A model generated the notes under the pieces. The model saw nothing but the letters and a program-made list of their open reading frames with translations. It did no database searches and was not told where the DNA came from. The position numbers and the translations under genes are program-made. 64,000 bases of DNA from NCBI GenBank assembly GCA_002419295.1, contig DIFW01000017.1, forward strand, positions 57,099-121,098, read 5' to 3'. Source of the DNA: Patescibacteria group bacterium UBA5738 (lineage in GTDB: Bacteria; Patescibacteriota; Minisyncoccia; Minisyncoccales; UBA5738). Positions 39,268 through 59,876 of the stretch are shown here, piece by piece. Position 1 is the stretch's first letter; every line of letters begins with the position of its first letter.

Positions 39268-39500
39268 TTTTTTATTGTTATTTTTTAATTTAATTAAATT
39301 TTAAAATAGTATTATTAGTTTGTGTGGATAAATTAATTTTTTAATCATAATCACCTTTAATTTTTACGATTTCTAATATGTTAATTTGTTTGTGGATATT
39401 TTTGTTGAAAAACATAACTCGTTTTTTAGTTGTTTATAATTAACATAATATTACCATTTTTTCCTGCGCCAAATAACAACTTATCCACACACAACACAAA
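39268..39500. other. Probable oriC (dnaA-dnaN intergenic region, AT-rich, DnaA boxes)
   Basis: TGTGGATAA at 39323..39331, TGTGGATAT at 39392..39400 and TTATCCACA at 39481..39489, in a very AT-rich 233-nt spacer. Confidence 0.65.
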
Positions 39501-40859
39501 TTAAGAATTGTAAATTTTATTTTTTAATAATTTTATTTCCTCGCAAAAATCATCATCATTTTTCATTTTTAAAGATATTTTTTTATAGGCGTGCATTACC
39601 GTGGTGTGATCTTTATTTCCTATTTTTCTGCCAATAAATGGAAAAGAAGCGTTAATTTCATTTCTTAAAAGATACATCACCACTTGGCGAGGCGTAACAA
39701 TTTCTTTTTTGCGCGAGTTCGATAATATTTCTTTTTCTTTTAAATCGTAAAAATTGGCGGTTTCTTGGATTATTTTTTTAAAATTAATTATTTTCTTCGG
39801 GTTTATGGACGACAAAACCTCTCGGCACATTTCAGGAGTGGTGGTTGTGTTTTTAAGTTTTGAGTGCGCGGCGATTTTAATTAACGCGCCCTCAAGTTCC
39901 CGCACATTGTTTTGGATTGTTTCGGCGATTGCCGATAATATTTGGTCTGAAAAAGAAAGTTTCAGATATTGGCATTTTTCTTTTAAAATTGCCATTCTGG
40001 TTTCAAAGTCGGGCAAGCTGATGTCGGCGATCATTCCTCCTTCAAAACGGGACCGCAAGCGATCGGAAAGCTCGGTGATGGCTTTTGGTGGACGATCGGA
40101 GGATAAAACTATTTGCAGGTTTTTGTTGTGGAGGGTGTTGAATATGTAAAAAAATTCATCTTGAGTTTTTTCTTTTCCGGAAATAAATTGAATATCGTCA
40201 ATGATAAAAACCGCGGTATTGAGATATTTGGCGCGCAAATCTTCAATTGTGCCGCCGCGGATGGCATTAATAATTTCCGTGGTAAGTTTTTCCGTTGGAA
40301 CATATTTAACTTTTTTATCCGGGAATTTGTTGGCGACCTCGTTGCCGATTGCTTGCAGTAGGTGCGTTTTTCCCAAACCGACGCCGCCGTAAAGAAAAAG
40401 AGGGTTGTAGGTTTGTCCCGGTTTTTCCGCCGCCGCGCGCGCGGCGGCGTGTGCCAGCTCGTTATGCGGACCCACAACAAAACAATCAAATTGGTATTTC
40501 GGGTTGAGGTTTGTGTTTTTATTGAATGAAAATTCTTCAAAACCCAGCTGTCCCCCGATTTGAGGATTGCGGCGGGATAGATTTTTGTTTTTTATTGACG
40601 GGTCGGGTGCGATTTGCACCACCTTGAAAAACACTTCTCTGATTGATGTATCAAACTCTCTTAAAAACGCAATCATTTGTTTGCGGTATTTTTGTTCCAG
40701 CCACTCTTTTGCCAGACAATTGGGCACGGCGACAACCGCCTCCCCGTTTTCAATTGAAATGATCATGGTTGATTTAAACCATGTGGCGAAAATCGCCGGA
40801 GAAACGCTTAATTGTATTTGGGCCAGTATCGATCGCCAGATTACTTCATTGTTGATCAT
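39501..40859 (-). CDS. dnaA: Chromosomal replication initiator DnaA
   Basis: 452 aa. AAA+ Walker A GGVGLGKTHLLQAIGNE, box VII, and a C-terminal DNA-binding domain. Confidence 0.9.
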   Translation of the reverse strand: MINNEVIWRSILAQIQLSVSPAIFATWFKSTMIISIENGEAVVAVPNCLAKEWLEQKYRKQMIAFLREFDTSIREVFFKVVQIAPDPSIKNKNLSRRNPQIGGQLGFEEFSFNKNTNLNPKYQFDCFVVGPHNELAHAAARAAAEKPGQTYNPLFLYGGVGLGKTHLLQAIGNEVANKFPDKKVKYVPTEKLTTEIINAIRGGTIEDLRAKYLNTAVFIIDDIQFISGKEKTQDEFFYIFNTLHNKNLQIVLSSDRPPKAITELSDRLRSRFEGGMIADISLPDFETRMAILKEKCQYLKLSFSDQILSAIAETIQNNVRELEGALIKIAAHSKLKNTTTTPEMCREVLSSINPKKIINFKKIIQETANFYDLKEKEILSNSRKKEIVTPRQVVMYLLRNEINASFPFIGRKIGNKDHTTVMHAYKKISLKMKNDDDFCEEIKLLKNKIYNS

Positions 40860-43001: not shown

Positions 43002-44990
43002 CTATGCGGCGGCGGTTTTCCCAACATTGATTCCGGAATCGGTTTTGAGGGGTTCGTTCGCCGCCGGAGTTTCTTTTAAAGCGTTTATCGACGCTCCGCC
43101 GCCATTATTTTTCGGCGCCGCCATCGCGCCGGATTCCGAATCGGGCTTGCGGTTGATGATCTCGGGCGGCGGCCCCGGTTTTTGCGCGACCGCGGCTTTT
43201 TTGATTTCCGCTTTTGCTTTTTTGATTTTTTCCAACTCTTCGGGATTGGTGGTGATAATTTGATCTTCAATATATGAAGCCACCACTTTCATTGCCACAT
43301 GCTTTTGCCCGGCAAAAAACAACCCTTCTCCGATTTCGGCTTCCAAAAGCAACCCCTTTTCCCTTTCGGTGAGATTAAATGTTTTTTGGACCACATCAAT
43401 GGTCGCCGGCGATTGTTTCAGCAGGATTTGTATTGAAGAGTTGGTGATGATCGGCGGTCCGTAGTTGGAACGCATAAAATCAGCCACATCTTGGGTGATG
43501 GTGGAAACTCCCAGCCAGTATTTGCGGGCCCGCTTGCACAATCCGTATAAAAACGAGGCGCCATCGTCGTTTTGCATCAATACCCACGCCTCGTCAACCA
43601 CCAAAATCCGTTTGCGCAATTTGGCGCGGACCTTGTTCCAAATATAATGCATAATGATATACATCGCCGCCGTTCGGAACTCGTTTTCCATATCGCGGAT
43701 GCCAAAAACCACCAGCGGCTTGTCCGTGGAAATGTTGGTGGGTTGGTTGAAAAATTCCGCGTATGTTCCCTGCGTAAATTTGCGAACGCGGCGCACCAAA
43801 GAGTCGGCGCCTTCCATTCCTTCCAGCACCGCTTCCAAATCCTGCATCAGCGGCACTCTCTCCGCCCACAGCCGGGGATCGGTTTCCGGGGTGATGTCTT
43901 TGGCGGCATAAACTTCGGTAAGCGCTTGATCGATGATAGCGTCTTCTTCGGAGGTTAATCCTCCCAAAAGGATTCTTACCAATCCCACGACATTAATAAT
44001 GTTGGAGCGGATTACATCGGCCGGGTTTTCGTCTTCTCTCGGCTCGGGCAAATCAAAAGCATTGATATGGTAGGGTGACGACAGCGAAACATTCAAAAAC
44101 GATCCGCCAGTCGCCTCGGCCAAAGTTTTAAATTCGTTTTCCGGGTCCACGACAATGGCATCCACCCCCATCATCATTGAGCGCAAGATTTCCAATTTGA
44201 CGGTGTAGCTTTTTCCCGATCCTGATTTCGCGAAAATGACGCTATTGGCGTTTTCCATTGAAAAGCGATCAAAAAGTATCAAGGAATTATTATGGAGATT
44301 GGTGCCATAAAGAATCCCTTCATTGGCGGAGAGATCAAACGAGACAAACGGAAAAGTGGACGACAGCGGGCTGGTATTCATCGGCGTCCATGTTTGTATT
44401 TGGTCCATGCCGTAGGGACAGGTGGAAACAAAGCCTTCTTTTTGCTGATAGAGCGACGGCTTGATGTAAATCAGTTTGGATTCAAGGATTGAGCGCAAGG
44501 TGGTTTCAATATCGCGCAATTTTTCAAAATCGTTTTCATATGCCGTCAAATAAATTCCCAGACGAAACATTCTTTCGGTGGAAGTTTGCAATTTGTCGCG
44601 CAAATCTTCCAAATCTTGATGGGCGATTTCCAGCGCTGGATCGCGCACCAGTCCTTTTTCCTGGCGATCCATGATTTCGGCTTGAACTTCGGTGAGTTTT
44701 TTGCGCAATTGTTTTAGCGTGGTGCCGGTATCAATGGGATGGATATGGAAACTTACATCCATGGGAGTGTCCAGATTGATTACCGGAGTGAACCAGCCGG
44801 AATTCAAATAGCGCGGATAGGAAAAAATAAAAAACGATTTACCGCACCGCTCCCCGATCTTGAAATGATCCGACGCCAAAACAATTGACGCCGGCGCGAC
44901 AATATCTTTGATGTTGATCGTTTTCATTTGCAATTCTTGGCCAGGCAACGCGATTTTTTTCGCTTTTTTGGGGGGAGAAAATAACGACAT
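43002..44990 (-). CDS. VirB4/TraC-family type IV secretion ATPase (body)
   Basis: 662 aa. Walker A AKSGSGKSYT, VVDPENEF...INAFDL, Walker B LVVDEAWVLM, and a TraC-like N-domain (YPRYLNSGWFTPVINL). Low-complexity K/A/P-rich tail. Confidence 0.7.
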   Translation of the reverse strand: MSLFSPPKKAKKIALPGQELQMKTINIKDIVAPASIVLASDHFKIGERCGKSFFIFSYPRYLNSGWFTPVINLDTPMDVSFHIHPIDTGTTLKQLRKKLTEVQAEIMDRQEKGLVRDPALEIAHQDLEDLRDKLQTSTERMFRLGIYLTAYENDFEKLRDIETTLRSILESKLIYIKPSLYQQKEGFVSTCPYGMDQIQTWTPMNTSPLSSTFPFVSFDLSANEGILYGTNLHNNSLILFDRFSMENANSVIFAKSGSGKSYTVKLEILRSMMMGVDAIVVDPENEFKTLAEATGGSFLNVSLSSPYHINAFDLPEPREDENPADVIRSNIINVVGLVRILLGGLTSEEDAIIDQALTEVYAAKDITPETDPRLWAERVPLMQDLEAVLEGMEGADSLVRRVRKFTQGTYAEFFNQPTNISTDKPLVVFGIRDMENEFRTAAMYIIMHYIWNKVRAKLRKRILVVDEAWVLMQNDDGASFLYGLCKRARKYWLGVSTITQDVADFMRSNYGPPIITNSSIQILLKQSPATIDVVQKTFNLTEREKGLLLEAEIGEGLFFAGQKHVAMKVVASYIEDQIITTNPEELEKIKKAKAEIKKAAVAQKPGPPPEIINRKPDSESGAMAAPKNNGGGASINALKETPAANEPLKTDSGINVGKTAAA

Positions 44991-45008: not shown

Positions 45009-45656
45009 TTATTGAATTAATTCGGGCGGGATCTCCGGATAATAACCGCGTTCAGAGTCTTCAAGATGGTGCGAGCTCCATAAAAACTCGGCGATTTCAA
45101 GGCTGTTGAGCGGCACGCATTGCAAGCCGCAACGGCGCAATCCCAATGCCACGAACTCCATTCTTTGCGCCAGCTGGGTCTTGCTTTGGTCAAATTGTTC
45201 CTGTGCCGCTTCCGCGATTTTTTCGCGATTGACATTTTTTTCCCGTTTCGCCGCCGCCAAGCTGGGAAGCGCGATCGGCTGGAACGGCACAATCACATAA
45301 AAAGATTTGTTCATAATGGTGCCTCCCGAAACGATTTCATTAATAAAGTTGCGATATTCAACAATCTGCGTGCGCAGAAGATCGTTGCTTTGCTTGGTTT
45401 CCAAATCGCGCAACTTGTCCAAATAGCTGGTGATATTCAACTTGCGGCTTTGCACCAGAATCTGCAGGGAAAAATCAAGAGAATTCAAAAAATTTTGATA
45501 TTGGCCGATGACGGCGTTTTGTTCTTCTTCGGCCATCAGGGCGAAATTGATGGAATTAACCATAATAATCCCCCGCAACCCCTTGTTTTTCAGAACCAGG
45601 ATGCCGTCTTTGATTTGATCAATTTCCAAAAATTGTTGAGTGGATAGAATCGCCAT
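45009..45656 (-). CDS. VirB4 N-terminal domain fragment, separated from the ATPase body by one in-frame TAA
   Basis: 215 aa. IDQIKDGILVLKNKGLRGIIMVNSINFALMAEEEQ resembles Gram-positive-type VirB4 N-termini. The downstream ATG (44990) is 21 nt from the stop, in the same frame. Confidence 0.45.
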   Translation of the reverse strand: MAILSTQQFLEIDQIKDGILVLKNKGLRGIIMVNSINFALMAEEEQNAVIGQYQNFLNSLDFSLQILVQSRKLNITSYLDKLRDLETKQSNDLLRTQIVEYRNFINEIVSGGTIMNKSFYVIVPFQPIALPSLAAAKREKNVNREKIAEAAQEQFDQSKTQLAQRMEFVALGLRRCGLQCVPLNSLEIAEFLWSSHHLEDSERGYYPEIPPELIQ

Positions 45657-47249: not shown

Positions 47250-47621
47250 TTGGGAAGTGTTAGGCTTGGATTGTTAACGGATATTATTTTCATATCTTCT
47301 TTTCTTCCATTTGTTGTGGCATATTATCTTTCCGCAACATATCTATGGCCGATCATGGACGACCCTGTGATCAATATGGTAGAATTTTACATGGTTTGGG
47401 CGGTTGCCTTTGCTGTGTTTTGGACCATCATCAGGGTTTGGAGAAGGAAGAGGGTGGAATTAAGTGCGGTGCAAGCCGCGGAAAATAGGAAGTGGGGTGT
47501 TCCCGAGAAAGAAAAACCCAAAAAGAAGGAAAAAACCAGCACAGATTTGCTGGCAGAAGAGGTACTTAAGAAAGTTGAGGAGAGCATGGATGAAAAAGGA
47601 GAAAAAGGAGGTGAAAAATAA
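47250..47621 (+). CDS. Small two-TM membrane protein with Lys/Glu-rich tail, hypothetical (TTG start)
   Basis: Strong SD AAAGGAGG 8 nt before the TTG start. Two hydrophobic helices, then a KEKPKKKEK tail. Confidence 0.4.
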   Translation: MGSVRLGLLTDIIFISSFLPFVVAYYLSATYLWPIMDDPVINMVEFYMVWAVAFAVFWTIIRVWRRKRVELSAVQAAENRKWGVPEKEKPKKKEKTSTDLLAEEVLKKVEESMDEKGEKGGEK

Positions 47622-48895
47622 TGGCAATACCGTTGCCTGACATCCCGGGGGATATTATTTATTTGTTTTTGGGGCTTTTGGGTGTTTGTATTTTGTGTTT
47701 TTTGGTTTGGTTGGTTTGGTTCCGTATTCCAAACGATCTCCAAGGGCGGTGGTTGATCCGAATTAGCGAGGGTCAAGGTGGATGGCTACACCAAGGAGAT
47801 AACAAAATTGACCCAAAAAGAAATGATCAGGGAAATGCCGCAGGGGTAGTAACGAATGGTCCTGCGATTAAGCCAATCATTTGTTTCAAGGGGTACCATT
47901 GCGAAAAAAATGATGCTGGAGAATATATAGTTGTTCCAGATGTGGATAAAAAACAAGACAAGAAGGATTCTCCCGCGGGTTATGCACTGTTGTGGCCTAT
48001 TCTCTTTGTTTGGCACTATCTTTCTGCTTTAACAAAAAAGCTTTTCTACGGCATTTTTTGGCTTGGCCCTCTTTATGTGTATGGGGCGGGAACCAATAAA
48101 TGGGAAGAATGGGTAGAAGAGCGTGGCAAAAAGGTGCTACGGACATTTGATCGTCGTGAGTTCGGTTTTAGGCTCAAAGTTACGAACTTTGGGTTTGAGA
48201 CAGAGGCCGCTGAAGCAAAAAACAAAGTTCCTTATAAGATTAAGGGAGAAGCTTTCTGGCGTATTGAGAATATAGACAGAGCAACCAGAATGATAGATGA
48301 CAGCAACTATAAGGCGGCAGCGTTGCTGACAGGAGAAATAGTAGCATGGGTTAGCAAGGAACCAATCTATCATATTGAAAGAGATAGAAAAGGAAAGATT
48401 GTCGCCGTTGGAGCTGAGCCGTCGGAGACTTTGAAGGAGAAGCTAGTGGTGCATTTATCAAGAGAAGGAGGTGCTGTTGAAAGGATCCGAAAAGAATATG
48501 GATTCTTAATTAGCGAAATTGTTATTTTGGATATTGAGCCCATGGGTGAGTTTTCCGAGCTTTTAGCCGCTGAAGCAAAGGCTGAGCTCAAGGGGCAAGC
48601 CGATGTTAGAGCGGAAGAGTTTGAAATGGCAGTCCAAAATATTAGGAGAGAATATACTGAAGCATGGTCAGATCTTTATAGAAGAAAACCAGAAACATTT
48701 GTCCAGTTTGCGGCCAGAGGTATTGAAAAACACGGCCCTCCGAGCATTTTTGGAATTGAGGGAATGGTGAGAGGTTCGACTGCGGATGGAGACATAGGAA
48801 GGCTTTTACAACTGATTGCTCCCAAACTGTCTGCGGAAGAAATAGATAAAGTAATTCCACAAATAATGGAATTGCTCAAAAAGAAATCGAAATAA
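47621..48895 (+). CDS. Membrane-anchored protein, possibly SPFH/band-7-like
   Basis: 424 aa. N-terminal TM helix. ILDIEPMGEFSELLAAEAKAELKGQADVRAEEFE resembles the SPFH C-terminal coiled region. A/T-rich codon usage. Confidence 0.35.
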   Translation: MAIPLPDIPGDIIYLFLGLLGVCILCFLVWLVWFRIPNDLQGRWLIRISEGQGGWLHQGDNKIDPKRNDQGNAAGVVTNGPAIKPIICFKGYHCEKNDAGEYIVVPDVDKKQDKKDSPAGYALLWPILFVWHYLSALTKKLFYGIFWLGPLYVYGAGTNKWEEWVEERGKKVLRTFDRREFGFRLKVTNFGFETEAAEAKNKVPYKIKGEAFWRIENIDRATRMIDDSNYKAAALLTGEIVAWVSKEPIYHIERDRKGKIVAVGAEPSETLKEKLVVHLSREGGAVERIRKEYGFLISEIVILDIEPMGEFSELLAAEAKAELKGQADVRAEEFEMAVQNIRREYTEAWSDLYRRKPETFVQFAARGIEKHGPPSIFGIEGMVRGSTADGDIGRLLQLIAPKLSAEEIDKVIPQIMELLKKKSK

Positions 48896-50379: not shown

Positions 50380-51630
50380 TTAACGGAACATTCCGCCTAT
50401 AATTCCGATGAAAGTACCGATAACATTTTGAGTTTGATTGGCGATATTTACCAAAGTGCCTTGCTTCGTTTTGTCTTTAATTCTAACTGCGGTGATATTT
50501 TCAAAATTCGTTGCGCTATAGGCATATTCTTTAAACTCTCCAGTGTTCTCGTCGGCGGTTTCTTTGATGCATTTGCCTGAATCTCTGTTTAGACAGCGGT
50601 TTATTAAGCAACCGCAAGCAAGGAAGCCGCAAGGCTCCAGTTTAGCGGTGTCAACTGTGCCGTCGGCATTTTTTTTGTAGGAAAATGCTTGGTATGATTT
50701 TGGTTGGCTCACCGGGCCTTGGGGGAAATTGATCCATCCGCCGTTGATTGCATTGTTCCCTGCCCCCTCCACTTTGTATTCATTGCCGGCAAAATTAACT
50801 TCATCATAGAAGATCACGACATCACATCCCGTTTCAGGAGCATTATAGGTGGCAATGCAGGTATAGGGATTTGGCAGGCATATTTTTTGCCAATCAGTTT
50901 TGCTGCCGTTTTCATCAAAGCCATAATTGCAACCGCAATATAAGCTTTGGCAATCGGCATTTTTACTGCAAAACTGGTAATTATCACTGGCGCCTGGTGT
51001 TATTTTGGCTTCATTCCCCGTTTCGGCGCATACGCTATCGTTGCCGCGGCAACAGCGCCAATTTTTTGGCACGCATTGTTGGTCAAAAGTACCATCGGAA
51101 TCTTTACAGCAATTTATATTATCGTTTGGCCCGGAACAACTTCGGTTGTTAATCGGGAAATTTCCCGCAAGATTTGCCGGGATTGTCGGCAAAGCGACTG
51201 CCATTTCGGTGAGATTGGGATTGATCAAGCTAAAGATTGCCCAACTGGATAATAATAATGCCAGTCCGATCGCCGCGGATTGTATTCTTTTCCTTGCTTC
51301 AGATAATTTATTTGGATCGGCAACGGAAGTGATATATTGTATGCCGGCGATAATCAGCGCGATGAATACCGCCAATCCCCCCAACCCCACTCCCCAGCCG
51401 AAAAAGTAGCCGACAAGATCCGCCAGCGCTGAATCTTCACTCAATGTATATCCTCCCAGTGGAGATGCCGGCCAATCGGTTTGCAAGGTAAAGCCAAAAT
51501 CCGGCGCTTCACATTTCGTTTCAGCTAATTCGCTGGAAAAAATTATTGTCGCGGGGAACGACAAGAGGCAAGCGATTGCAAATAGTAAAAATGCGCGTAA
51601 AATATTTTTTTTAAAAAATTTGGAATGCAT
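50380..51630 (-). CDS. VirB2/TrbC pilin-like hairpin fused to a C-terminal Cys-rich extracellular domain
   Basis: Signal peptide, LADLVGYFFGWGVGLGGLAVFIALIIAGIQYITSVADPNKLSEARKRIQSAAIGLALLLSSWAIF (pilin-like two-helix hairpin), then about 280 aa with about 22 Cys. Confidence 0.45.
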   Translation of the reverse strand: MHSKFFKKNILRAFLLFAIACLLSFPATIIFSSELAETKCEAPDFGFTLQTDWPASPLGGYTLSEDSALADLVGYFFGWGVGLGGLAVFIALIIAGIQYITSVADPNKLSEARKRIQSAAIGLALLLSSWAIFSLINPNLTEMAVALPTIPANLAGNFPINNRSCSGPNDNINCCKDSDGTFDQQCVPKNWRCCRGNDSVCAETGNEAKITPGASDNYQFCSKNADCQSLYCGCNYGFDENGSKTDWQKICLPNPYTCIATYNAPETGCDVVIFYDEVNFAGNEYKVEGAGNNAINGGWINFPQGPVSQPKSYQAFSYKKNADGTVDTAKLEPCGFLACGCLINRCLNRDSGKCIKETADENTGEFKEYAYSATNFENITAVRIKDKTKQGTLVNIANQTQNVIGTFIGIIGGMFR

Positions 51631-51631
51631 T

Positions 51632-52366
51632 TTATTTTTTGGGAAGGATTGATACTGATTCTATCATTTCGTTGATTTCTTGCACAATTGTTGCGGTGGA
51701 GCTTTGCGAGGTTATCGATATGGTGTAAATTTTGCCGGAGGGGGTGTCGAAAATGGCGTTGACTATTTTTAAATTTATCGTAATTTTTGAAGTTGGCTCA
51801 ACGATGGATTGTTCCGTTTCCACCACGGAAACGGTTTGGTCCCCTTTGACGATTTCGGAGCGGGCGATTTTGGCGGCGATATTTTTGGCGCGCAAATCGG
51901 TTTCAATTTTTTCCATCAGTTCTTCAGCGGTTTGCGCGCTTGATTCTTCCACGGTGAGGGAGTTGATCGACGGCATTATCGATTGGCTGGCGGTTTTATA
52001 GGCGGCGAATAATATCTTGCCGCCGGCGCTTTCCGCGGCTTGTTCGCCGAGATTCATCGGTATCCAATCAATCGGGTACTCAAAGGAGAAGGACTCGTCC
52101 GGGGCGGTCCATATTTTTGTTTCAACGGTCGTGGTGGCGCTGTCCGCCGGACTTTGCGCCGGATTTTGCAATTGGCCTTGTATCTGGCTCATAATGCCGT
52201 CAAGCTGTTGGCCGGCGTCGGGCACTCCTTGCATCAATTCTTGCGGCAAATTAAGTTGCAGATTTTTGATATTGCCCTGAAATTGGTTGAACTGCCACAT
52301 CGTGGAGCCGGCCAGAAACGCAATCATTACAAACACGCCGATTAAATATAGATTCACCAATTTCAT
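51632..52366 (-). CDS. N-terminally anchored hypothetical protein (possible VirB8-like periplasmic component)
   Basis: 244 aa. One N-terminal TM helix, a Q-rich linker and a soluble domain. No diagnostic motif. The VirB8 assignment is only positional. Confidence 0.3.
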   Translation of the reverse strand: MKLVNLYLIGVFVMIAFLAGSTMWQFNQFQGNIKNLQLNLPQELMQGVPDAGQQLDGIMSQIQGQLQNPAQSPADSATTTVETKIWTAPDESFSFEYPIDWIPMNLGEQAAESAGGKILFAAYKTASQSIMPSINSLTVEESSAQTAEELMEKIETDLRAKNIAAKIARSEIVKGDQTVSVVETEQSIVEPTSKITINLKIVNAIFDTPSGKIYTISITSQSSTATIVQEINEMIESVSILPKK

Positions 52367-52375: not shown

Positions 52376-54955
52376 TTATATGTTCCACCACACTCCCGCG
52401 TATCCGAACAATGAGGTGAATATTCCCACGATTGTCCAGGCGAAAAACAATATGAAATAGCCGATGCCGATCAGTTTCCACCATGAAATGACTTTTTGCT
52501 TGATTTCGGGAGTGCCAAAGCTGGTATAGAACAAGCCGCCGGTGGCCAGCCCCAGCAAAGGCAGAAGAATAAACGCCGCGCGGAACAGAATCATATTCAA
52601 AATTTGCATTATTACCAGCAGAAAATGCTTGGCGCCGCAAGCTTCGCGGTCGTCCCATTCGGTGTTGGGATTGTCATTGGTGAGGCCGCAGACCGCCAAA
52701 ACCATTTGCCCTTTTTCTATTTCTTTGCCGCCGGCGGCAAAATCAAACGACCATGTTGCCGGCGCCGCGCCCGTATCCGTGCATTTTTCGTCCAGACAAG
52801 CTAAAACCGACCACTCATATTTTCCCAGACAATAGAGCTGGCGGATGTCCTTGTTGATCGTCGTTGAGTTTTCGTTGACGATTTTTTCCACTTTTTGTCC
52901 GGGAGCGCAATCTTTGTTGGTTTCTTTGTCGGATTTTTCGGCATAATTCAGATTTAGTTTGTAATAATGCGCGCCGGCGACCGGTTCCCATGAAAAGCTG
53001 TAGATCAGCTGGCTGTTATTGATTGTTTCTTGCGGGTTAATCGGTCCTTCTGACGCGCCCAAGGCCGCGGTGGAAAAAGTGAATTTGGGCGAAGGCGCGC
53101 CACAAAGCTGGCCGTTTTCGTCGGCGCAAGTTTGCACGCTCCATTCATAAGATTGGCTTTGGTTGACGGCTGGATAGTCCGCGGCGTAATTATTGTTTTG
53201 CGAGACAATTTTCTGGCCGTTGAAATCCAAAACATAAGATTTGGCGCCGGCAACCGCTTCCCAATGCAAATCAACCGGCATTGCCAAATCGGAAGTGTTG
53301 TCCGCGGGGGATAAAGTTTCGGTTTTCGGCGCGCGGCCGGTGGTGCGGAAATACCACCATTGAGACCACGGCTCGTCGCACACATTGCCCACCGGAATCG
53401 ACGGCCAGCAAGATTTCACGCGCCATTTGTAGGCAGTGTCCAATTCCAGTTCAATCCCCTGCGCGTCGCTGTTGTTGTCGGCGGCGTTTGCTTTGGAAAA
53501 AATAATTTGTGATTTTGTGGTGCGCCGCTCTCCGTCTACCAATGATTGGCCGGTGTCGCCGGAAATTTTTTGAATATCATAAGCAAAAGAATTGGCGCCG
53601 TTGGGAGCTTGCCATAAAAGCTTTCCCGGCAGTTCGGCGAGTTTGGCGGTTTGCGCATTGGCATAATCGCCGTCATTGGCGGGCGAAAGCGCCTTCGGTG
53701 CTTCAACAATTTCATTTTTTGCGGTAAATTTCCAAAGCTGGCCCCAATATTTGTCTGATGATGAGCCGCAATATTCATCGCCGGCATTGGTGTTGTTGAA
53801 ACACCGCCGCAACTGCCAATAGTAGGTAATGTTTTTGGTGAACAGCGCCCGATCTTGACTGGACATTTCTTTATGCGACCACCAATTGCGCCCGACTGTC
53901 TCTTGCGCCGGGTTAATGACATCGGGCTTGCAGGTGTTATCGGTTTGCTTTTGAAGATAATGGCAAGCCATGGGATTTTGCAATGCCGGCACATCTTTTT
54001 TTAACCATGCGGCCAATTGAGAAAATCCTTGCGGGATTTGCGCGCCGGTCAATACCAGATGATTTTCGTTGGTATAAACACGCAACTGGTATGATAGCGC
54101 CGCGATCATATTATTGTTGTAGGCCATTTTTTCCGATGAAACTTTGGCCGAACACCAATCAAGCTTCAACCCATCATAGGAGATGCCGGTTTTTCCGTCC
54201 GGACCGTTCCAATCCGGGTCGCCGATGTTGATGGGTTCGGGAGCCGGGCTGGTTTTAAATGTCCACCATGGCGCTTTGTCTTCGGGCAGGCAATTGGAAC
54301 CGTCTTCGTTGCAACAAGGGCGTATGCGCCACTTGATTACCGTGTCGGAGTTATAGAAACAGGGGTAAAATTTTTCCGTCGCGTTAAATTCGTTGGTAGT
54401 CAAAATCTGGCGGAAAATACCGCCGGCGCTTTGAGAGTCGTTTAATTCCAAATTCTTGTTTTCTATTTCTAAAATATACGAATGGGCGCCGAATAATTTG
54501 GAAGTCGTCGCTTTTTTATTTCCCAATTTTTCTTGAAAATTCCAAATATATTCTCCGTCTTCGTTTTGCCACCCGTCGATATTGTCCCATGCCAAAACCA
54601 CGGGCAAGGTGATTTCATTTTCGTTGGTTTGCCTGGTTTTATTCACCGGATCGTTATAATAGTAATGGTTTTTGGGCATGGTCAAGCATTCGTTGACGCA
54701 AGCGCAAGCGCCCATATCAATATTGTCGTTAATTTTCAGTTGCCCTCCCTTTTGCCACGATTTGCAAACGGTTTCGCCGGATTTCGTGCCGCTAAAAGAC
54801 GCGCCGCATTCTTCCGGGATGTCAAAATAATCGGTTTCACCGATATCGGTTGCGGAACACAATAACGGCGCGATTGTTGCGGCCAAAAAAAATAAAATAT
54901 GCGGGAAAAATGATTTTAAAATTTTAGAAATCATGCCGATTTTTTGATTTATCAT
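52376..54955 (-). CDS. Giant secreted Cys/Trp-rich repeat protein with C-terminal VirB2-pilin-like membrane hairpin (paralog A)
   Basis: 859 aa. Signal peptide. Repeated modules (YKWRVKSCWPSIPVGNVCDEPWSQWWYFRTTGRAPK, YEWSVQTCADENGQLCG, WTFKTSPAPEP). C-terminus FRAAFILLPLLGLATGG...IGIGYFILFFAWTIVGIF. Confidence 0.5.
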   Translation of the reverse strand: MINQKIGMISKILKSFFPHILFFLAATIAPLLCSATDIGETDYFDIPEECGASFSGTKSGETVCKSWQKGGQLKINDNIDMGACACVNECLTMPKNHYYYNDPVNKTRQTNENEITLPVVLAWDNIDGWQNEDGEYIWNFQEKLGNKKATTSKLFGAHSYILEIENKNLELNDSQSAGGIFRQILTTNEFNATEKFYPCFYNSDTVIKWRIRPCCNEDGSNCLPEDKAPWWTFKTSPAPEPINIGDPDWNGPDGKTGISYDGLKLDWCSAKVSSEKMAYNNNMIAALSYQLRVYTNENHLVLTGAQIPQGFSQLAAWLKKDVPALQNPMACHYLQKQTDNTCKPDVINPAQETVGRNWWSHKEMSSQDRALFTKNITYYWQLRRCFNNTNAGDEYCGSSSDKYWGQLWKFTAKNEIVEAPKALSPANDGDYANAQTAKLAELPGKLLWQAPNGANSFAYDIQKISGDTGQSLVDGERRTTKSQIIFSKANAADNNSDAQGIELELDTAYKWRVKSCWPSIPVGNVCDEPWSQWWYFRTTGRAPKTETLSPADNTSDLAMPVDLHWEAVAGAKSYVLDFNGQKIVSQNNNYAADYPAVNQSQSYEWSVQTCADENGQLCGAPSPKFTFSTAALGASEGPINPQETINNSQLIYSFSWEPVAGAHYYKLNLNYAEKSDKETNKDCAPGQKVEKIVNENSTTINKDIRQLYCLGKYEWSVLACLDEKCTDTGAAPATWSFDFAAGGKEIEKGQMVLAVCGLTNDNPNTEWDDREACGAKHFLLVIMQILNMILFRAAFILLPLLGLATGGLFYTSFGTPEIKQKVISWWKLIGIGYFILFFAWTIVGIFTSLFGYAGVWWNI

Positions 54956-54978
54956 TTATCATTTATCATTATACACCT

Positions 54979-57930
54979 TCAAAGGATTTGGTTCCATAAT
55001 TCTTTATAGCCGACCAAATTCATCAAAACGGAAACAATGATCCACGCGAAAAACAAAATGCCATAGCCGATGCCGATTTTTTTCCAGCCGTCTTTTATTG
55101 TCGGAATAAGATTGGCCTTATCATGCGACAAATAGAACATTCCGCCGGTGATCATCGCCATTACCGGTAAAAGTATGAATGCCAGCTTGAACACCACAAA
55201 GTCAATGATTACTTTGGTTCCCAGAACCAGATGTTTGATTTCGCAAGGTTCTTTCTCGTTGTATTGGGTGTTTGGATCGTCCGCTGCCAATCCGCAGACC
55301 ATCAGTCCGGAACTCTGCCCTTTGTTGGCGATGGAAAAAAATTGTTCGGCGTAAACATATCCTTTTGAGGCGCATTTATCATCAAAGCACGGTTGCACCA
55401 CAAACGAATAATTACCGGCGCAGTATGGCGATCCGTTTTTATCCGCCGTTCTGATTGCCATACTGGTCGCGGAAACTATTTTTTCTTTGTATTCGTTGTT
55501 AAACCAATCCGGATCGCAGCTGGTGCTCTTCTCTCCGCTTTCAACTTTCGCGGTTACCAGAAAATATTTGGCGTTACTGCTCCATGTCAAACCGGAAGGT
55601 ATCCGCGAGATGTCTCCCGAAGGAGACAAGTTGGTTGGCTTAGTAAAATCTTTTGTGAGATATGTTCCAAAATTGCTCCACGGACCGCAAACGGTTCCGT
55701 TCTTGTCGGCACAAGTCTGCACCTGCCAGCGATAAGTTTCTTTTGCTACTTTATAATTGAAGGTATAGGAATTGGTTGGTTGAGGATTCGGATTTTCGAT
55801 GCCGACTTCTTTTCCGGCCGCGTTGAAAATCCTGACATTAAAAGATCCGTTCGCCGGCACGCTTTCCCATATGAAGGTCGCACTGGGCGCGTCGTCATTG
55901 GCGATTTGCAGAGAATCGTTTTTTGGCGGCCGTCCGGTAGTGATAAAATTTTGCCACTCCGACCATTTGCCGCCGCAAATTTCGTTGATATTGCCCACCG
56001 GGATTGACGGCCAGCAGGATTTCACGCGCCATTTGTATTTGGTGTTGATCTTTAATTCCACGGATTCGGGATTTTTCCCCTGCGTTGGGGCCTTGTCGGT
56101 GATGGCGATTGTAATTTGAGCTTTATTAAACCTTCGCCCTGCGTCATTTTTGTAGCTTTCTTGGCAATCCCCCGTTCTAAAAATACTTTCTCCGTTTTCG
56201 TCTTGAATGTCGTATAAAAAAGAGTTTGCGCCGCAGGGAGCGGTCCAGTTGAAAGTATTGTTCAATCCGATCAGATTGTTGTCATCGCCCCAGTTTTCAT
56301 TTTTCGCCGGGCTGATCGGCGCCGGCGGTTTCAATGTGCTCGAATCCATTGCTTTGCCGATTAATTGCCATTTTTGCCCGAAGTCTTCGTCAATGTTGCT
56401 GTCGCAGTGAGGGAAGCTGCTGTCTTCGGCGCCGCCGCTAACATTGAAACAGGGTTTGATTTGCCAGGAATACTTCAAATCGGCGCCTTTACTGCCGGTA
56501 AAAAGATTGCGATCTTGGCTGGTATTTTCCGCCGCGGAAAAAAAAGGCTTGAAAGTCGCGTCACTTATCAATTGATCCGTATAGGGGGAAAAAGAAAGAG
56601 ACTCCGGTTTCGCGCAACTTCCGTCGCTGTTTCTTTGCAAGTAATGGCAAGCTTCGGATTCGTGCTCCCCGACGGCCACTTCGCTTTTCGCGGCCTTTTC
56701 TATGCCGGATTCCATCCATTTATCGCATTCGCTGGCGCCGCCGCTCCACGCGTTTTTCCAGCCATCCCAGCGGGATTTAATGCCGCTGACAACGCCGCTG
56801 TTTTTTATCCATCCGAGAATGCCGCCTAAAACGGGGATATTCTCAATTTTTTCGATCAGTGCTCCCAGAGAAGTGTTTTCGCTGGACATTACGCGCATTT
56901 GGTAATTGGCCGCGTAGTCAATCTGGCTGTCGTTATAGACTTTATCAAAACGATTGTAGGTGTTCGGAACGGATTTTACGAGTTTGGCTTTGCACCAATA
57001 TAGCTTGGCACTGCAAAAATCCACGCCTTCAAGGGCGCCCGGTCCGTTCCAATCCGGGTCTTGGGCGATTTTATTGTTGCCGGCATATGCCTCTGAATCG
57101 TTGACACCTAAGAGTTCGGGGGCCGGAGAAGTGGAAAATTCCCACCAACCCTCGTTATCGCCGTATGTTTTACATTGCAATCCGGACCTGTCGCAACAAG
57201 GCAAAACTCGCCAGCGGTACTTTGAGTTGGTTTGAAAAAAACACGCTCCGCCGTCATCGCGCGAATTGAAGCCGTTTTTTTGCAGAACCTTGGCATAGGC
57301 TTCTTTTCCGCCGATATTTTCAATCGCGTATCCTCCGGCTTCGGCGAGATTTAAACCTTTTATTCCGTCCGGGGCGCCGGCATCATCCATGCTCTGGATT
57401 TGGACGCGGTAGCTCCGCGCGCCGTAATCAACGGTTGGCGCTCCCGTACCGATCACGAATTTCCCCTCGTTTTGCCATTCCGGGATATTATCCCATGCCA
57501 AGATGATGGGCAAGCTGATGACATCGGGCGTGTTTTGGTAAAGCTTGCCGCCTTCAATTTTTTTTGTCTCTTCGTCGTATTGCGCGTTATTATCGTAATA
57601 TTGCGGATTTTTTGGCGATTCAAGGCATTCTTTTTCACATTTGCAGAGTCCGTAATCGTTGCGCCCGGCTTGCGCGATTTGCCAGCTTGAGCATTTTCTT
57701 GTGCGCCTATCGTTGTCGCAACATGAAGGATTTCCATCTTTCTCGCAGGGAGAAGTGTAATGTTCCCATACTTCTCCGCTTCCGACATCAAAACCGTTGC
57801 ATGTTTTGGGAATATCTTCGTAATAATATTTATGGCCGCAGGCATTCGCTTCAAGCGGAGCCGAAAAGCAAAACAACACTGTTGCCGTTGTGGCGAAAAA
57901 AGAAAAGATTTTAAAATAATTTTCTGCCAT
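54979..57930 (-). CDS. Giant secreted Cys/Trp-rich repeat protein with C-terminal VirB2-pilin-like membrane hairpin (paralog B)
   Basis: About 983 aa from MAENYF. The same repeat family (YKWRVKSCWPSIPVGNINEICGGKWSEWQNFITTGRPPK, YRWQVQTCADKNGTVCG, WEFSTSPAPE). C-terminus KLAFILLPVMAMITGG...IGIGYGILFFAWIIVSV. Confidence 0.5.
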   Translation of the reverse strand: MAENYFKIFSFFATTATVLFCFSAPLEANACGHKYYYEDIPKTCNGFDVGSGEVWEHYTSPCEKDGNPSCCDNDRRTRKCSSWQIAQAGRNDYGLCKCEKECLESPKNPQYYDNNAQYDEETKKIEGGKLYQNTPDVISLPIILAWDNIPEWQNEGKFVIGTGAPTVDYGARSYRVQIQSMDDAGAPDGIKGLNLAEAGGYAIENIGGKEAYAKVLQKNGFNSRDDGGACFFQTNSKYRWRVLPCCDRSGLQCKTYGDNEGWWEFSTSPAPELLGVNDSEAYAGNNKIAQDPDWNGPGALEGVDFCSAKLYWCKAKLVKSVPNTYNRFDKVYNDSQIDYAANYQMRVMSSENTSLGALIEKIENIPVLGGILGWIKNSGVVSGIKSRWDGWKNAWSGGASECDKWMESGIEKAAKSEVAVGEHESEACHYLQRNSDGSCAKPESLSFSPYTDQLISDATFKPFFSAAENTSQDRNLFTGSKGADLKYSWQIKPCFNVSGGAEDSSFPHCDSNIDEDFGQKWQLIGKAMDSSTLKPPAPISPAKNENWGDDNNLIGLNNTFNWTAPCGANSFLYDIQDENGESIFRTGDCQESYKNDAGRRFNKAQITIAITDKAPTQGKNPESVELKINTKYKWRVKSCWPSIPVGNINEICGGKWSEWQNFITTGRPPKNDSLQIANDDAPSATFIWESVPANGSFNVRIFNAAGKEVGIENPNPQPTNSYTFNYKVAKETYRWQVQTCADKNGTVCGPWSNFGTYLTKDFTKPTNLSPSGDISRIPSGLTWSSNAKYFLVTAKVESGEKSTSCDPDWFNNEYKEKIVSATSMAIRTADKNGSPYCAGNYSFVVQPCFDDKCASKGYVYAEQFFSIANKGQSSGLMVCGLAADDPNTQYNEKEPCEIKHLVLGTKVIIDFVVFKLAFILLPVMAMITGGMFYLSHDKANLIPTIKDGWKKIGIGYGILFFAWIIVSVLMNLVGYKELWNQIL

Positions 57931-58820: not shown

Positions 58821-59876
58821 ATGAGTATTATTCTCCAACTGAAAAATTTCGCCAAACTACTCCTCGCCGGAGCGGTTTTGTTTGCCGTCTGCTCCGTGAT
58901 CTCCCGGCAGGTATCTCAGCGCGCTTCGGCCGGAATTAACGATGATTTTTGCGCCGAAACCAAAATGTTTGCTCATGCCGGCGAGCAGGCGAAGCCCGAA
59001 TCGCCGGATTATCTTTTGGCGGGCGAAGGATGCGTTAAAGCCGCGGTCCCGCCGGTGGCGATTACACCTCGGGTTTTGGCGGCGATTACCGGCGATTTTT
59101 CGGAGAACAAAGCGCAAGAAGAACAACAAAACACCATTATTGAGTATGAAATCACCGGCGACGAAACGCTGTCAAGCTTGGCCGAAAAGTTTAACATCAG
59201 CGTTGACAGCATCGCGTGGGCGAACAATCTTTCCAAAAACGCGGATTTGAAAACGGGAGAGAAATTGGTCATTCCGCCGGTAAGCGGGGTGATCCATCAC
59301 GCGGTCGCGGGCGATACGATCGGGCAGATTGCCAAAAAATACCAAGCGAAATCGGAAGAAATCGTTGCCTTCAACGGCCTTGCCGGCGAGAATGATATTT
59401 TTATCGGTGATATTCTGATGGTTCCCGGCGGCAAGATCGTTGTTCCTCCCGCGCAAAAGCCGGCGGCGGCAAAAACCGCGGTGCAGGCTCCCGCGCGCGC
59501 ATCGGGATTGTCGGCGATGCCGGCGGACTATTTCTTGTGTCCGGTGGGAGCGGCTTGCAAAAAAACGCAAGGATTGCATTTCTACAACGCGGTTGATTTG
59601 ACCGGAGGATATTGCGGCGCGCCAATATACGCCGCGGCGTCGGGAATCGTGGTCAAGGCGGTAACCGGCGGCTGGAACGGCGGTGCCGGCAATAATATCA
59701 CCATTTCCCATATGTCCGGCACGATAACAACTCATTATTATCATTTGCAAACAATTTTGGTAAAAGCGGGACAAGAAGTGAAAAAGGGCGACTTGATCGG
59801 TACGATGGGAAAAACCGGCAATTCGACCGGTTGCCATCTCCACTTCGGCGTGGGCGGCGCGGCCAACCCTTTTTAA
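58821..59876 (+). CDS. LysM-domain M23 family peptidase
   Basis: N-terminal TM helix, two LysM repeats (GDETLSSLAEKFNISVDSIAWANNL and GDTIGQIAKKYQAKSEEIVAFNGL), and a C-terminal M23 domain with HYYH...GCHLHFGV metal-binding motifs. Confidence 0.8.
   Translation: MSIILQLKNFAKLLLAGAVLFAVCSVISRQVSQRASAGINDDFCAETKMFAHAGEQAKPESPDYLLAGEGCVKAAVPPVAITPRVLAAITGDFSENKAQEEQQNTIIEYEITGDETLSSLAEKFNISVDSIAWANNLSKNADLKTGEKLVIPPVSGVIHHAVAGDTIGQIAKKYQAKSEEIVAFNGLAGENDIFIGDILMVPGGKIVVPPAQKPAAAKTAVQAPARASGLSAMPADYFLCPVGAACKKTQGLHFYNAVDLTGGYCGAPIYAAASGIVVKAVTGGWNGGAGNNITISHMSGTITTHYYHLQTILVKAGQEVKKGDLIGTMGKTGNSTGCHLHFGVGGAANPF

What the first reader, a model, noticed from the sequence alone, without database searches (positions are those of the whole stretch)
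52376..57930. Two giant paralogous Cys/Trp-rich repeat proteins ending in VirB2/TrbC pilin-like hairpins
The 859-aa and roughly 983-aa proteins share a signal peptide and an N-terminal Cys-rich domain. They carry repeated modules of about 35-40 aa with invariant Y.W.V..C, C and W...W.F.T positions (for example YKWRVKSCWPSIPVGN..C...WS.W..F.TTGR.PK). Both end in two hydrophobic helices separated by a short polar loop (...ILLPxxxxxTGGxFY...IGIGYxILFFAWxIV...). That ending closely resembles the pilin hairpin near the N-terminus of the neighbouring 416-aa protein. A large extracellular adhesin-like domain would thus be covalently attached to a T4SS pilin-type membrane anchor. I do not recognise the repeat as a described domain.
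Basis: inference. Interest (0 to 1): 0.8.

Follow-up and report, generated by a model that had tools for sequence, protein, structure and literature searches.

The report
Giant FN3-stalk proteins ending in T4SS pilin
Two neighbouring genes of an ultrasmall (Patescibacteria) bacterium encode long, disulfide-rich chains of fibronectin-III-like domains that end in the same two-helix module as the small "pilins" of this group's type IV secretion system, so they are probably host-contact stalks plugged into that machine; this large-pilin design has not been described in the papers I could search.

Summary
ORFs 52376-54955(-) (859 aa) and 54979-57930(-) (983 aa) are full-length paralogues (31% identity, E=5e-129). 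Each has a signal peptide, a Cys-rich head and two C-terminal hydrophobic helices.

The "undescribed 35-40 aa repeat" is the last two strands (F-G, with a conserved Cys pair) of five divergent fibronectin-III-like domains. The AlphaFold model (pLDDT 84) matches tandem FN3 structures (Foldseek E=3e-13).

The last ~108 residues (VCG...C..KH cap plus helix-loop-helix) belong to Pfam PF18895, T4SS_pilin:
- The window proteins score below threshold (E=1e-3 and 0.024).
- Relatives reach E=2e-9.
- Stand-alone 142-150 aa forms (signal peptide plus module) exist.
- A profile-profile match to the neighbour's PF18895 domain gives 80% probability, against 4% for reversed controls.

Fold comparison with solved VirB2/TraA pilins was uninformative, and the VirB2/TrbC Pfam model did not match.

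The genes lie in a tight operon within a dnaA-proximal, monoderm-type T4SS locus. The gene order is conserved in the related Patescibacteria loci long enough to show it.

The module occurs in 2452 clusters of the 50%-identity representative library, and is C-terminal in 149 of the best 150. Best reading: "modular T4SS pilins" that present an FN3 stalk for host contact. This is a new variant of a known kind, and the function is inferred.

The parts
52376..54955 (-). Gene A: 859-aa modular pilin (signal peptide, Cys-rich head, five FN3-like domains, C-terminal T4SS_pilin module)
   Evidence: ORF; AF2 model pLDDT 84.2; 46 word-indexed homologues
54848..54955 (-). A residues 1-36: signal peptide / N-terminal hydrophobic helix
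   Evidence: Hydrophobic segment 12-39; helix 5-28 in the model; least conserved part
54626..54847 (-). A residues 37-110: small beta-rich Cys-rich head (invariant C50 C64 C84 C90); the most variable mature domain
   Evidence: mean pairwise identity 0.51 versus 0.61-0.68 for the FN3 domains
52721..54625 (-). A residues 111-745: five FN3-like beta-sandwich domains (about 111-240, 241-417 with a helical insert, 418-543, 544-633, 634-745). Each ends in the Y.W.V..C...C...W.F.T strand F-G motif.
   Evidence: DSSP of the model; Foldseek versus PDB returns tandem FN3 structures, E=3e-13; motif positions; invariant Cys pairs
52379..52720 (-). A residues 746-859: pilin module. It comprises the Cys cap (VCG...DNPNT.WDDRE.C..KH, C756/C773), helix 775-810, a Lys-rich loop and helix 816-849.
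   Evidence: PF18895 E=1.1e-3; profile finds 2452 clusters including stand-alone pilins; hhalign to the gene C pilin domain, probability 79.7%; hairpin model; charge distribution
54979..57930 (-). Gene B: 983-aa paralogue of A with the same architecture and longer inserts
   Evidence: BLASTP 31% identity over the full length, E=5e-129; public gene call P0041 of 983 aa
54982..55308 (-). B residues ~875-983: pilin module
   Evidence: PF18895 E=0.024; A2 profile E=5.9e-49; sequence
51632..52366 (-). Gene E: 244-aa signal-anchored protein, conserved between the A-type and C-type genes in related loci. Function unknown; weak sub-threshold PsbP-like hits.
50380..51630 (-). Gene C: 416-aa protein with signal peptide, N-terminal T4SS_pilin hairpin (residues ~72-138 = 51217..51417) and a C-terminal ~280-aa Cys-rich ectodomain (21 Cys)
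   Evidence: PF18895 31.2 bits, above the cut-off; NCBIfam Mbov_0395 pilin-like E=7e-9, 35.2 bits, below its cut-off of 40; all 44 homologues carry PF18895
49066..50352 (-). Gene D: 428-aa polytopic membrane protein. A VirB6/PrgH-like candidate by position only.
   Evidence: Many hydrophobic segments; no family hit; syntenic polytopic genes in L001 and L003
45669..46310 (-). PrgI (VirB3-like) gene
   Evidence: PF12666 E=2.1e-11
43002..44990 (-). VirB4-like T4SS ATPase
   Evidence: PF19044 TraG P-loop E=7.8e-24, AAA_10, DUF87
45009..45656 (-). 215-aa protein at the position of the TraC-like (PF26593) gene in related loci
   Evidence: Synteny with L001 and L003; no Pfam hit in the window copy
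58821..59876 (+). LysM + peptidase M23 protein flanking the operon in all related loci. A possible VirB1-type wall hydrolase.
   Evidence: Pfam; synteny; the paper notes M23/LysM domains in Patescibacteria VirB1 homologues

Best explanation
A and B are modular T4SS pilins.

Proposed sequence of events:
1. Each protein is exported by Sec through an N-terminal signal peptide.
2. Its C-terminal helix-loop-helix inserts in the cytoplasmic membrane with both ends outside and the Lys-rich loop inside.
3. The whole N-terminal part therefore lies outside the cell.

The outside part is a Cys-rich head on five disulfide-stapled FN3-like domains. At about 3.5-4 nm per FN3 domain (textbook value) this gives roughly 20-25 nm.

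The C-terminal module is the same module that makes up the small stand-alone pilins of Patescibacteria T4SS loci. It is as conserved as the globular domains. I therefore infer that it is not a passive anchor. It would dock into the VirB4/VirB3(PrgI)/VirB6-type machine encoded a few kb away. There it could enter the pilus or conduit as a minor, initiating or tip subunit, or sit as a collar at its base.

In either position it would hold the FN3 stalk and its more variable head toward the host cell. It would then play the adhesin role that VirB5/TraN or PrgB play elsewhere, and that has not been found in Patescibacteria.

Shown here: the domain architecture, family membership of the module, the topology signals, operon and locus context, and conservation across genomes.

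Inferred: incorporation into a filament, the adhesin function, and the disulfide pairing.
For: Architecture:
- AF2 model with pLDDT 84.
- Foldseek top hits are all tandem FN3 structures.

Module identity:
- PF18895 hits in 18 of 40 close relatives and 17 of 54 broader relatives, best E=2.3e-9.
- Complete 142-150 aa proteins consisting of a signal peptide plus this module (P0117, P0142, P0160). P0160 is above the Pfam cut-off at 27.0 bits.
- hhalign to the neighbour's bona fide PF18895 domain: probability 79.7% over 69 in-register columns, against ~4% over 7-8 columns for reversed controls.
- Cross-hits of the C-type pilin HMM on A2-type modules.

Topology:
- Acidic pre-helix flank, three Lys in the loop, uncharged tail, and no LPXTG motif.
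- Gene C carries its extra domain on the other (C-terminal) side of the hairpin, which is also outside under the same topology.

Conservation of the hairpin:
- Mean pairwise identity 0.67 for the hairpin and 0.82 for the Cys cap.
- FN3 domains 0.61-0.68; head 0.51.

Context:
- ksgA-B-A-E-C-D are co-directional with gaps of 1-27 nt.
- VirB4-like and PrgI genes lie 6-9 kb away and dnaA is close by.
- The order B-type, A-type, ~240-aa gene, C-type pilin recurs in the 8 distinct related loci long enough to show it (L001/L002, L009, L010, L012-L015, L018). L003 has a single giant in the same position.

Literature:
- Patescibacteria T4SS is of the monoderm type, often near dnaA, with VirB2-like pilin arrays and 'no adhesins such as PrgB detected' (PMC12102498).
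- The pilin array is essential in Ca. S. epibionticum (PMC10633639).
- T4SS-pilin-domain proteins are among the most highly expressed unknown genes in Patescibacteria that parasitise methanogens (PMC10936435).
Against: - A and B themselves score below the Pfam gathering threshold (19.4 and 15.2 bits against 26.6).
- No structural or sequence link to any solved T4SS pilin was obtained.
- No pilus has been shown experimentally for any Patescibacteria T4SS.
- An ectodomain of about 750 aa on every subunit is sterically hard to fit into a VirB2-type helical filament.
- No plain small pilin lies within 10 kb in any of the related loci or in the 64-kb window. A 'major pilin plus giant minor pilin' scheme therefore needs a gene elsewhere, or gene C as the major subunit.
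- There is no binding data for the FN3 chain.
Confidence: 0.5

Rival explanations
1. Envelope scaffold or plain anchor. The hairpin only tethers the proteins in the membrane. The FN3 chains form a fixed stalk or fence through the cell wall and S-layer, for example a sheath or spacer around the T4SS channel or a general surface layer. There is no polymerisation into a pilus and no direct host binding.
For: - All three pilin-module genes of the locus carry large ectodomains, and no small pilin lies nearby.
- FN3 chains are typical spacers (fold hits include titin and the GhpA neck).
- The ectodomain is rather evenly conserved, without a hypervariable region.
- Relatives carry M23, C39-like or C70 peptidase domains, which suggests wall-directed activity.
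Against: - A generic anchor would not need a module shared at E~1e-27 to 1e-29 with stand-alone pilins. Nor would it keep an invariant Cys cap and the G80/Y81/W88 helix residues.
- The gene order inside the T4SS locus is strictly conserved.
Confidence: 0.3
2. Giant pro-pilins. The FN3 ectodomain acts as an oversized leader or passenger that is cleaved just upstream of the VCG cap. Cleavage would release a normal ~108-aa mature pilin into the membrane pool, and possibly a secreted FN3 protein.
For: - Known T4SS propilins (TraA, VirB2, TrbC) are processed from long leaders (textbook knowledge).
- In stand-alone relatives the signal-peptide cleavage region lies only 5-15 residues before GLVPCG.
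- The linker at 742-755 has low confidence, pLDDT 66-69.
Against: - The linker has no hydrophobic h-region or signal-peptidase-like site, and no conserved cleavage motif.
- A leader of about 750 aa with 18 invariant Cys and conserved folds would be very costly for a reduced genome.
- No dedicated protease gene was seen in the operon.
Confidence: 0.1
3. Chance resemblance. The C-terminal hairpin is an unrelated two-transmembrane anchor, and the T4SS_pilin hits reflect hydrophobic composition only.
For: - Sub-threshold Pfam scores for A and B.
- Fold searches are non-specific.
Against: - Reversed-profile controls collapse to 4% probability.
- Relatives reach E=2.3e-9 on PF18895.
- Stand-alone forms exist.
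- The only other hit among 883 window ORFs is the PF18895 domain of gene C.
- The locus context agrees.
Confidence: 0.05

Closest known systems
Patescibacteria VirB2-like pilins (Pfam PF18895 T4SS_pilin), including the essential pilin array of Ca. Southlakia epibionticum (PMC10633639; PMC12102498)
   Same: The same helix-loop-helix module, a signal peptide, a location in a monoderm-type T4SS locus near dnaA, and several divergent pilin-module genes in a row.
   Different: [quoted passage not shown] Here the module is the last 108 residues of 859- and 983-aa proteins with a five-FN3 ectodomain. The third pilin-module gene (C) also carries a 280-aa extra domain.
VirB2/TraA/TrbC conjugative pilins of diderm T4SS (Pfam PF04956; F, pED208 and T pili)
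   Same: A two-helix hairpin with both termini outside and a basic loop (topology from textbook knowledge of F-pilus and T-pilus structures), a Sec leader, and association with VirB4, VirB3 and VirB6.
   Different: No PF04956 match. No retrieval of solved pilins by fold or sequence. Size is 8-10 times larger. The host is a monoderm. There is a Cys-bonded cap before helix 1.
Modular type IV (T4P) pilins, for example PilB of Streptococcus sanguinis (PMC8179133)
   Same: The design principle: a pilin polymerisation module with a functional adhesive module grafted on, so that the filament itself carries the adhesin.
   Different: An unrelated pilin fold and machinery (class III signal peptide, N-terminal alpha-1 helix, prepilin peptidase). 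Here the pilin module is a C-terminal hairpin of the T4SS type.
T4SS adhesins: VirB5 and TraN (diderms); PrgB (enterococcal pCF10, LPXTG-anchored)
   Same: The proposed role, which is contact with the target cell for a T4SS, and encoding in the T4SS locus.
   Different: No sequence or domain relation. No LPXTG motif. PrgB-type adhesins were reported absent from Patescibacteria. Here adhesin and pilin would be a single polypeptide.
Tandem FN3 surface proteins (for example the neck of the grappling-hook protein GhpA, PDB 9flp; bacterial FN3/Ig adhesin stalks)
   Same: A chain of FN3-like beta-sandwiches acting as an extended stalk.
   Different: A conserved Cys pair closes the F-G hairpin of each domain. 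There is an extra Cys-rich head and a pilin-type membrane module.

Membership tests
Pfam PF18895 T4SS_pilin (Patescibacteria-type VirB2-like pilin) | Match to the family HMM at or above the gathering score (26.6 bits) | tested here: inconclusive
   A scores 19.4 bits (E=1.1e-3) and B 15.2 bits (E=0.024), both below the cut-off. Homologues with the same module reach E=2.3e-9 and 27.0 bits in the stand-alone form P0160. hhalign to the gene C PF18895 domain gives probability 79.7%, against 4% for controls.
Pfam PF18895 T4SS_pilin (Patescibacteria-type VirB2-like pilin) | Signal peptide followed by two long hydrophobic helices joined by a short basic loop | tested here: met
   Hydropathy; AF2 helices 775-810 and 816-849; three Lys in the loop and an acidic outer flank.
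Pfam PF18895 T4SS_pilin (Patescibacteria-type VirB2-like pilin) | Encoded in a T4SS locus with VirB4, VirB3/PrgI and a polytopic VirB6-like gene | tested here: met
   VirB4-like at 43002-44990 and PrgI at 45669-46310. A polytopic gene D adjoins, but its VirB6 identity is not shown. The same locus order recurs in related genomes.
Pfam PF18895 T4SS_pilin (Patescibacteria-type VirB2-like pilin) | Small protein (~100-150 aa) consisting essentially of the pilin module | tested here: not met
   The proteins are 859 and 983 aa, and the module is only the last ~108 residues. This feature makes them a variant.
Pfam PF18895 T4SS_pilin (Patescibacteria-type VirB2-like pilin) | Polymerises into an extracellular T4SS pilus | not testable with these tools
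   No experiment exists for any member. The literature calls the pilus 'potential'.
VirB2/TrbC pilins (Pfam PF04956) | Match to the PF04956 HMM | tested here: not met
   No PF04956 hit at E<=1 for A, B or C.
VirB2/TrbC pilins (Pfam PF04956) | Specific structural similarity to solved T4SS pilins (TraA, VirB2, TrwL, CedA1) | tested here: inconclusive
Fibronectin type III / E-set Ig-like domains | Seven-strand beta-sandwich fold with the strand-B Trp and strand-F Tyr corner | tested here: met
   The AF2 model gives Foldseek top hits on tandem FN3 proteins, E=3e-13 to 1e-8. The 'L.W' and 'Y.W.V' motifs are conserved.
Fibronectin type III / E-set Ig-like domains | Match to Pfam FN3-type HMMs | tested here: inconclusive
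   A and B have no FN3-type hit at E<=1. Relatives hit fn3 (7 of 40, best 1.4e-6), Pur_ac_phosph_N (13 of 40) and Ig_Rha78A_N (14 of 40, best 5e-9), and Ig_Rha78A_N again in 23 of 54.
Sortase-anchored Gram-positive T4SS adhesins (PrgB type) | C-terminal LPXTG sorting signal | tested here: not met
   No LP.[TSA][GAN] motif in A, B or C.
Type IV (T4P) pilins, including modular pilins | N-terminal class III signal peptide (G/[FM]...E5) and N-terminal alpha-1 helix | tested here: not met
   The N-termini are ordinary Sec-type leaders (MINQKIGMISKILKSFFPHILFF...). The helical module is C-terminal.

The most novel reading that the evidence does not exclude
In this Paceibacteria-type lineage the T4SS has no plain pilin at all. 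Its extracellular conduit or filament would be built or capped only by 'modular T4SS pilins'. Two carry ~750-870-aa FN3 stalks on the N-terminal side of the hairpin, and one carries a Cys-rich domain on the C-terminal side. Pilin and adhesin would thus be one polypeptide, a design not known for any T4SS. This organelle would be what recognises and holds the host cell. Relatives that add M23, C39-like or C70 peptidase domains to the same scaffold would in addition breach the host wall.
Probability: 0.25. Interest if true: 0.85.

Novelty: new variant of a known kind. Interest (0 to 1): 0.6.

Why it matters
Patescibacteria make up a large share of bacterial diversity and live attached to host cells. 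In the one species tested genetically, the T4SS and its pilin genes are essential for that lifestyle (PMC10633639).

Two points are unknown: what the T4SS does, and how it reaches the host. A recent survey explicitly found no T4SS adhesin in the phylum (PMC12102498). A conserved pair of giant proteins that weld an FN3 stalk onto the T4SS pilin module is a concrete candidate for that missing contact device.

It also widens the known range of T4SS pilins, which in characterised systems are 7-12 kDa peptides (my own knowledge). It gives defined targets for antibodies, cryo-ET labelling and host-range prediction from the variable head domain.

The family is large: the module profile finds 2452 50%-identity clusters at E<=1e-3 and 460 at E<=1e-10. 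Public annotation calls members either 'hypothetical protein' or just 'pilin'.

Tried and rejected
2. Profile of the module against PDB sequences. No T4SS pilin was found; the best hits were GPCR and K-channel helices at E>0.6.
3. NCBIfam scans of A, B, relatives that NCBI names 'pilin', and stand-alone forms. No model hit. The PGAP name 'pilin' therefore probably comes from the Pfam HMM, which is my inference.
4. Genomic context of stand-alone pilins P0117, P0142 and P0160. The contigs are only 1.1-1.5 kb, and the neighbours are not A2-type modules. Whether giant and small forms coexist in one locus remains unanswered.
5. Choline-binding or other short cell-wall repeats. Rejected because the period and the fold are those of FN3.
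6. LPXTG or lipobox anchoring. No LPXTG-like motif was found. By my reading of the N-terminal sequences printed there, 'PLLC' in A is not a lipobox.
7. T4P-type pilin. Rejected, as there is no class III leader.
8. Literature searches for giant or fused T4SS pilins in CPR. None was found. The supplement of PMC12102498 lists PF18895 hits as 'VirB2' without lengths.
Full report
**1. What is there**

Two adjacent minus-strand ORFs occupy the finding's coordinates.
- A is 52376..54955, 859 aa.
- B is 54979..57930, 983 aa from the ATG. The alternative TTG start at 57966 would overlap ksgA, and the public gene call P0041 is 983 aa.

They align over their whole length at 31% identity, E=5e-129. Both are rich in Cys (2.9% and 3.4%) and Trp (3.7% and 3.1%). 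Both begin with a Sec-type hydrophobic leader. Both end in two long hydrophobic segments.

**2. The 'repeat'**

The motif Y.W.V..C...C...W..W.F.T occurs five times in each protein. In A it starts at 207, 378, 509, 603 and 713 (four copies per protein match the regex; the fifth was read from the translation). Its Tyr, Trp and Cys positions are invariant in a 40-sequence family alignment (A1).

An AlphaFold2 model of A built on that alignment is confident (mean pLDDT 84.2). It shows:
- a leader helix;
- a small Cys-rich beta domain (~37-110);
- five beta-sandwich domains (~111-240, 241-417 with a helical insert, 418-543, 544-633, 634-745);
- a short linker;
- a helical hairpin (775-810 and 816-849).

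The motif always forms the last two strands of a sandwich.

Foldseek against the PDB returns only tandem fibronectin type III proteins at the top: gp130 at E=3e-13, contactin FN1-3, fibronectin 10-12, titin FnIII, and the neck of the grappling-hook protein GhpA. A and B have no FN3-type Pfam hit. Their relatives do: Ig_Rha78A_N in 14 of 40, Pur_ac_phosph_N in 13 of 40, and fn3 in 7 of 40.

So the repeat is a divergent FN3-like domain. Its F-G hairpin carries a conserved Cys pair, so a disulfide is inferred rather than measured. It is not a new domain.

**3. The C-terminal module**

The last ~108 residues comprise four elements:
- a conserved cap, VCG...DNP.T.W.ERE.C..KH, with invariant C756 and C773;
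- helix 1, containing 'LLP' and 'ATG';
- a short Lys-rich loop;
- helix 2, containing 'IGIGY..LFFAW'.

*Pfam.* T4SS_pilin (PF18895) is the only Pfam hit on A (E=1.1e-3, 19.4 bits) and on B (E=0.024). Both are below the 26.6-bit cut-off. The neighbouring 416-aa protein C passes it at 31.2 bits. C also gives a sub-threshold hit on NCBIfam's Mbov_0395 pilin-like conjugal transfer family (35.2 bits against a cut-off of 40).

*Further tests.*
- (a) 18 of 40 family members hit PF18895 at E<=0.01.
- (b) A 17-sequence profile of the module (A2) was searched against 1.84 billion cluster representatives. It found 2452 proteins at E<=1e-3 and 460 at E<=1e-10. In 149 of the best 150 the module ends within 10 residues of the C-terminus, and 110 of them are at least 600 aa long.
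- (c) Among the hits are complete 142-150 aa proteins that are just a signal peptide plus this module ('GLVPCG...C..KH' plus hairpin): P0117, P0142 and P0160. P0160 passes the Pfam cut-off.
- (d) 54 long representatives share the whole FN3-chain architecture, and 17 of them hit PF18895, best E=2.3e-9.
- (e) Among all 883 ORFs of the window, the A2 HMM finds only A, B and then the pilin region of C (E=2.3e-4).
- (f) hhalign of A2 against a 44-sequence alignment of the C-type pilin domain gives probability 79.7% and E=1.5e-5. It aligns helix 1, loop and helix 2 in register over 69 columns. Reversed-profile controls give ~4% over 7-8 columns.

I conclude that the module is a member of the Patescibacteria T4SS_pilin family, in a 'GLVPCG-cap' subfamily. 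It is only remotely related to the hairpin of C (13% identity), so 'closely resembles' is too strong.

**4. Topology**

The flank before helix 1 is acidic (6 D/E against 3 K/R). The inter-helix loop has three Lys. The tail is uncharged. There is no LPXTG motif. Applying the positive-inside rule (textbook knowledge), the loop is cytoplasmic and both ends face outward. That is also the topology known for VirB2 and TraA (my own knowledge).

Consistently, A and B carry their extra domains N-terminal to the hairpin, and C carries its 280-aa Cys-rich domain C-terminal to it. Both positions are outside the cell.

**5. Context**

ksgA-B-A-E-C-D are co-directional with gaps of 1-27 nt. Nearby genes:
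- a PrgI/VirB3-like gene (45669-46310);
- a VirB4-like ATPase (43002-44990; PF19044 E=7.8e-24);
- yidC;
- dnaA (39501-40859) and dnaN.

A LysM plus M23 peptidase gene sits on the other side (58821-59876). The rest of the window is housekeeping, so this is chromosomal.

This matches the published picture of the Patescibacteria T4SS: monoderm MPF-FATA type, often next to dnaA, with arrays of 2-11 divergent VirB2-like pilin genes and usually no relaxase (PMC12102498).

Related loci from metagenomes and 15 GTDB-species genome loci, all Patescibacteria MAGs (Paceibacterota/Minisyncoccales), were examined. The 8 distinct loci long enough to show it (L001/L002, L009, L010, L012-L015, L018) keep the order M23/LysM, ksgA, B-type, A-type, ~240-aa gene, C-type pilin, polytopic protein... 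PrgI, TraC-like, VirB4. The most distant locus, L003, has a single giant in the same position. No plain small pilin lies within 10 kb in any of these loci.

**6. Conservation**

Mean pairwise identity within the A-type orthologues:

| Region | Identity |
|---|---|
| Cys cap | 0.82 |
| Hairpin | 0.67 |
| FN3 domains | 0.61-0.68 |
| N-terminal head | 0.51 |
| Leader | 0.29 |

A membrane segment as conserved as the globular domains, and shared with stand-alone pilins, argues for specific helix packing rather than simple anchoring. The distal head is the most variable mature part.

**7. Mechanism (inference)**

The best-supported reading is that A and B are modular T4SS pilins.
1. They are exported by Sec and held N-out/C-out by the pilin module.
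2. That module engages the T4SS assembly. It could act as an initiating or tip subunit of a pilus or conduit, or as a collar at its base.
3. The ~20-25 nm FN3 stalk and Cys-rich head project to the host surface.

This would supply the adhesin function that the 2025 survey did not find in the phylum ('No adhesins, such as the MPF-FATA PrgB, were detected'). It agrees with T4SS-pilin-domain proteins being among the most highly expressed unknown genes in Patescibacteria parasitising methanogens.

The nearest conceptual precedent is the 'modular pilin' PilB of Streptococcus sanguinis type IV pili (PMC8179133), which uses an unrelated pilin fold.

Rivals:
- A non-polymerising envelope scaffold or anchor (0.3). 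It is supported by the absence of a small pilin in the locus and by peptidase-bearing relatives.
- A giant pro-pilin that is cleaved (0.1). No cleavage motif was found.
- Chance resemblance (0.05). The controls contradict it.

Steric crowding makes a filament built solely of 859-983-aa subunits unlikely, so a tip or base position is more plausible.

**8. Novelty**

The pilin family, the locus and the pilin arrays are known. NCBI's pipeline already labels two homologues 'pilin'. I found no paper that notes T4SS pilin modules fused to large ectodomains, or this FN3-stalk family. Characterised T4SS pilins are small peptides.

I rate it a new variant of a known kind, of moderate to good interest (0.6). 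It offers a concrete, testable candidate for the host-contact element of an essential but functionally obscure machine. Every functional statement remains an inference.

Noticed in passing
window 50380..51630 (-): The neighbouring bona fide PF18895 protein C (416 aa) is also 'modular'. Its pilin hairpin is N-terminal (residues ~72-138), and a 280-aa domain with ~20 Cys follows it with no family hit. All 44 homologues found (233-509 aa) carry PF18895. One is from Ca. Yanofskyibacterium parasiticum, a parasite of methanogens.
   Followed up: partly
relatives P0079, P0102 and others in alignment A3 (not in the window): Some members of the wider FN3-stalk plus C-terminal pilin family carry extra enzyme-like domains at the N-terminal end. 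These are Peptidase_M23 (2 of 54, E=3.6e-23), Peptidase_C39_2 (2 of 54), Peptidase_C70 (1), and beta-helix plus DUF5123 (P0102, 1668 aa). This suggests wall- or surface-degrading activities delivered on the same scaffold.
   Followed up: partly
window 11015..14506 (-): A class I aminoacyl-tRNA synthetase (1163 aa, Ile/Val/Leu type) has a histidine phosphatase (His_Phos_1, E=1e-31) domain inserted at residues ~497-656, between the two halves of the catalytic domain. This is an unusual insertion.
   Followed up: no
window 38000..40000: G+C drops to 0.34 (against ~0.46-0.50 elsewhere) across the dnaN/dnaA region (dnaN 38131-39267, dnaA 39501-40859). This is probably the AT-rich replication origin. 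The T4SS locus starts about 2 kb beyond dnaA, matching the published origin-proximal placement.
   Followed up: no
window 47621..48895 (+) and 47250..47621 (+): A 424-aa membrane-anchored protein lies on the opposite strand inside the T4SS locus. It is conserved at the same position in L001 and L003, where it has a faint Band_7 hit. A small 123-aa two-TM protein precedes it. Their role in the locus is unknown.
   Followed up: no
window 30950..32278 (+): A T2SSE-family ATPase (PilB/GspE type, E=1e-112) lies about 11 kb from the T4SS locus. The genome therefore also has type IV filament machinery, as reported for Patescibacteria.
   Followed up: no
window 7593..9272 (-): A 559-aa protein has DUF11 and DUF7619 repeat hits and may be another surface protein.
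   Followed up: no
L003 588..1160 (+): In the most distant related locus, a 190-aa protein about 9 kb upstream of the giant gene carries the same C-terminal pilin module (A2 profile E=6e-12; also hit by the C-type HMM at 1e-6). It is an intermediate-sized form between stand-alone and giant pilins.
   Followed up: partly
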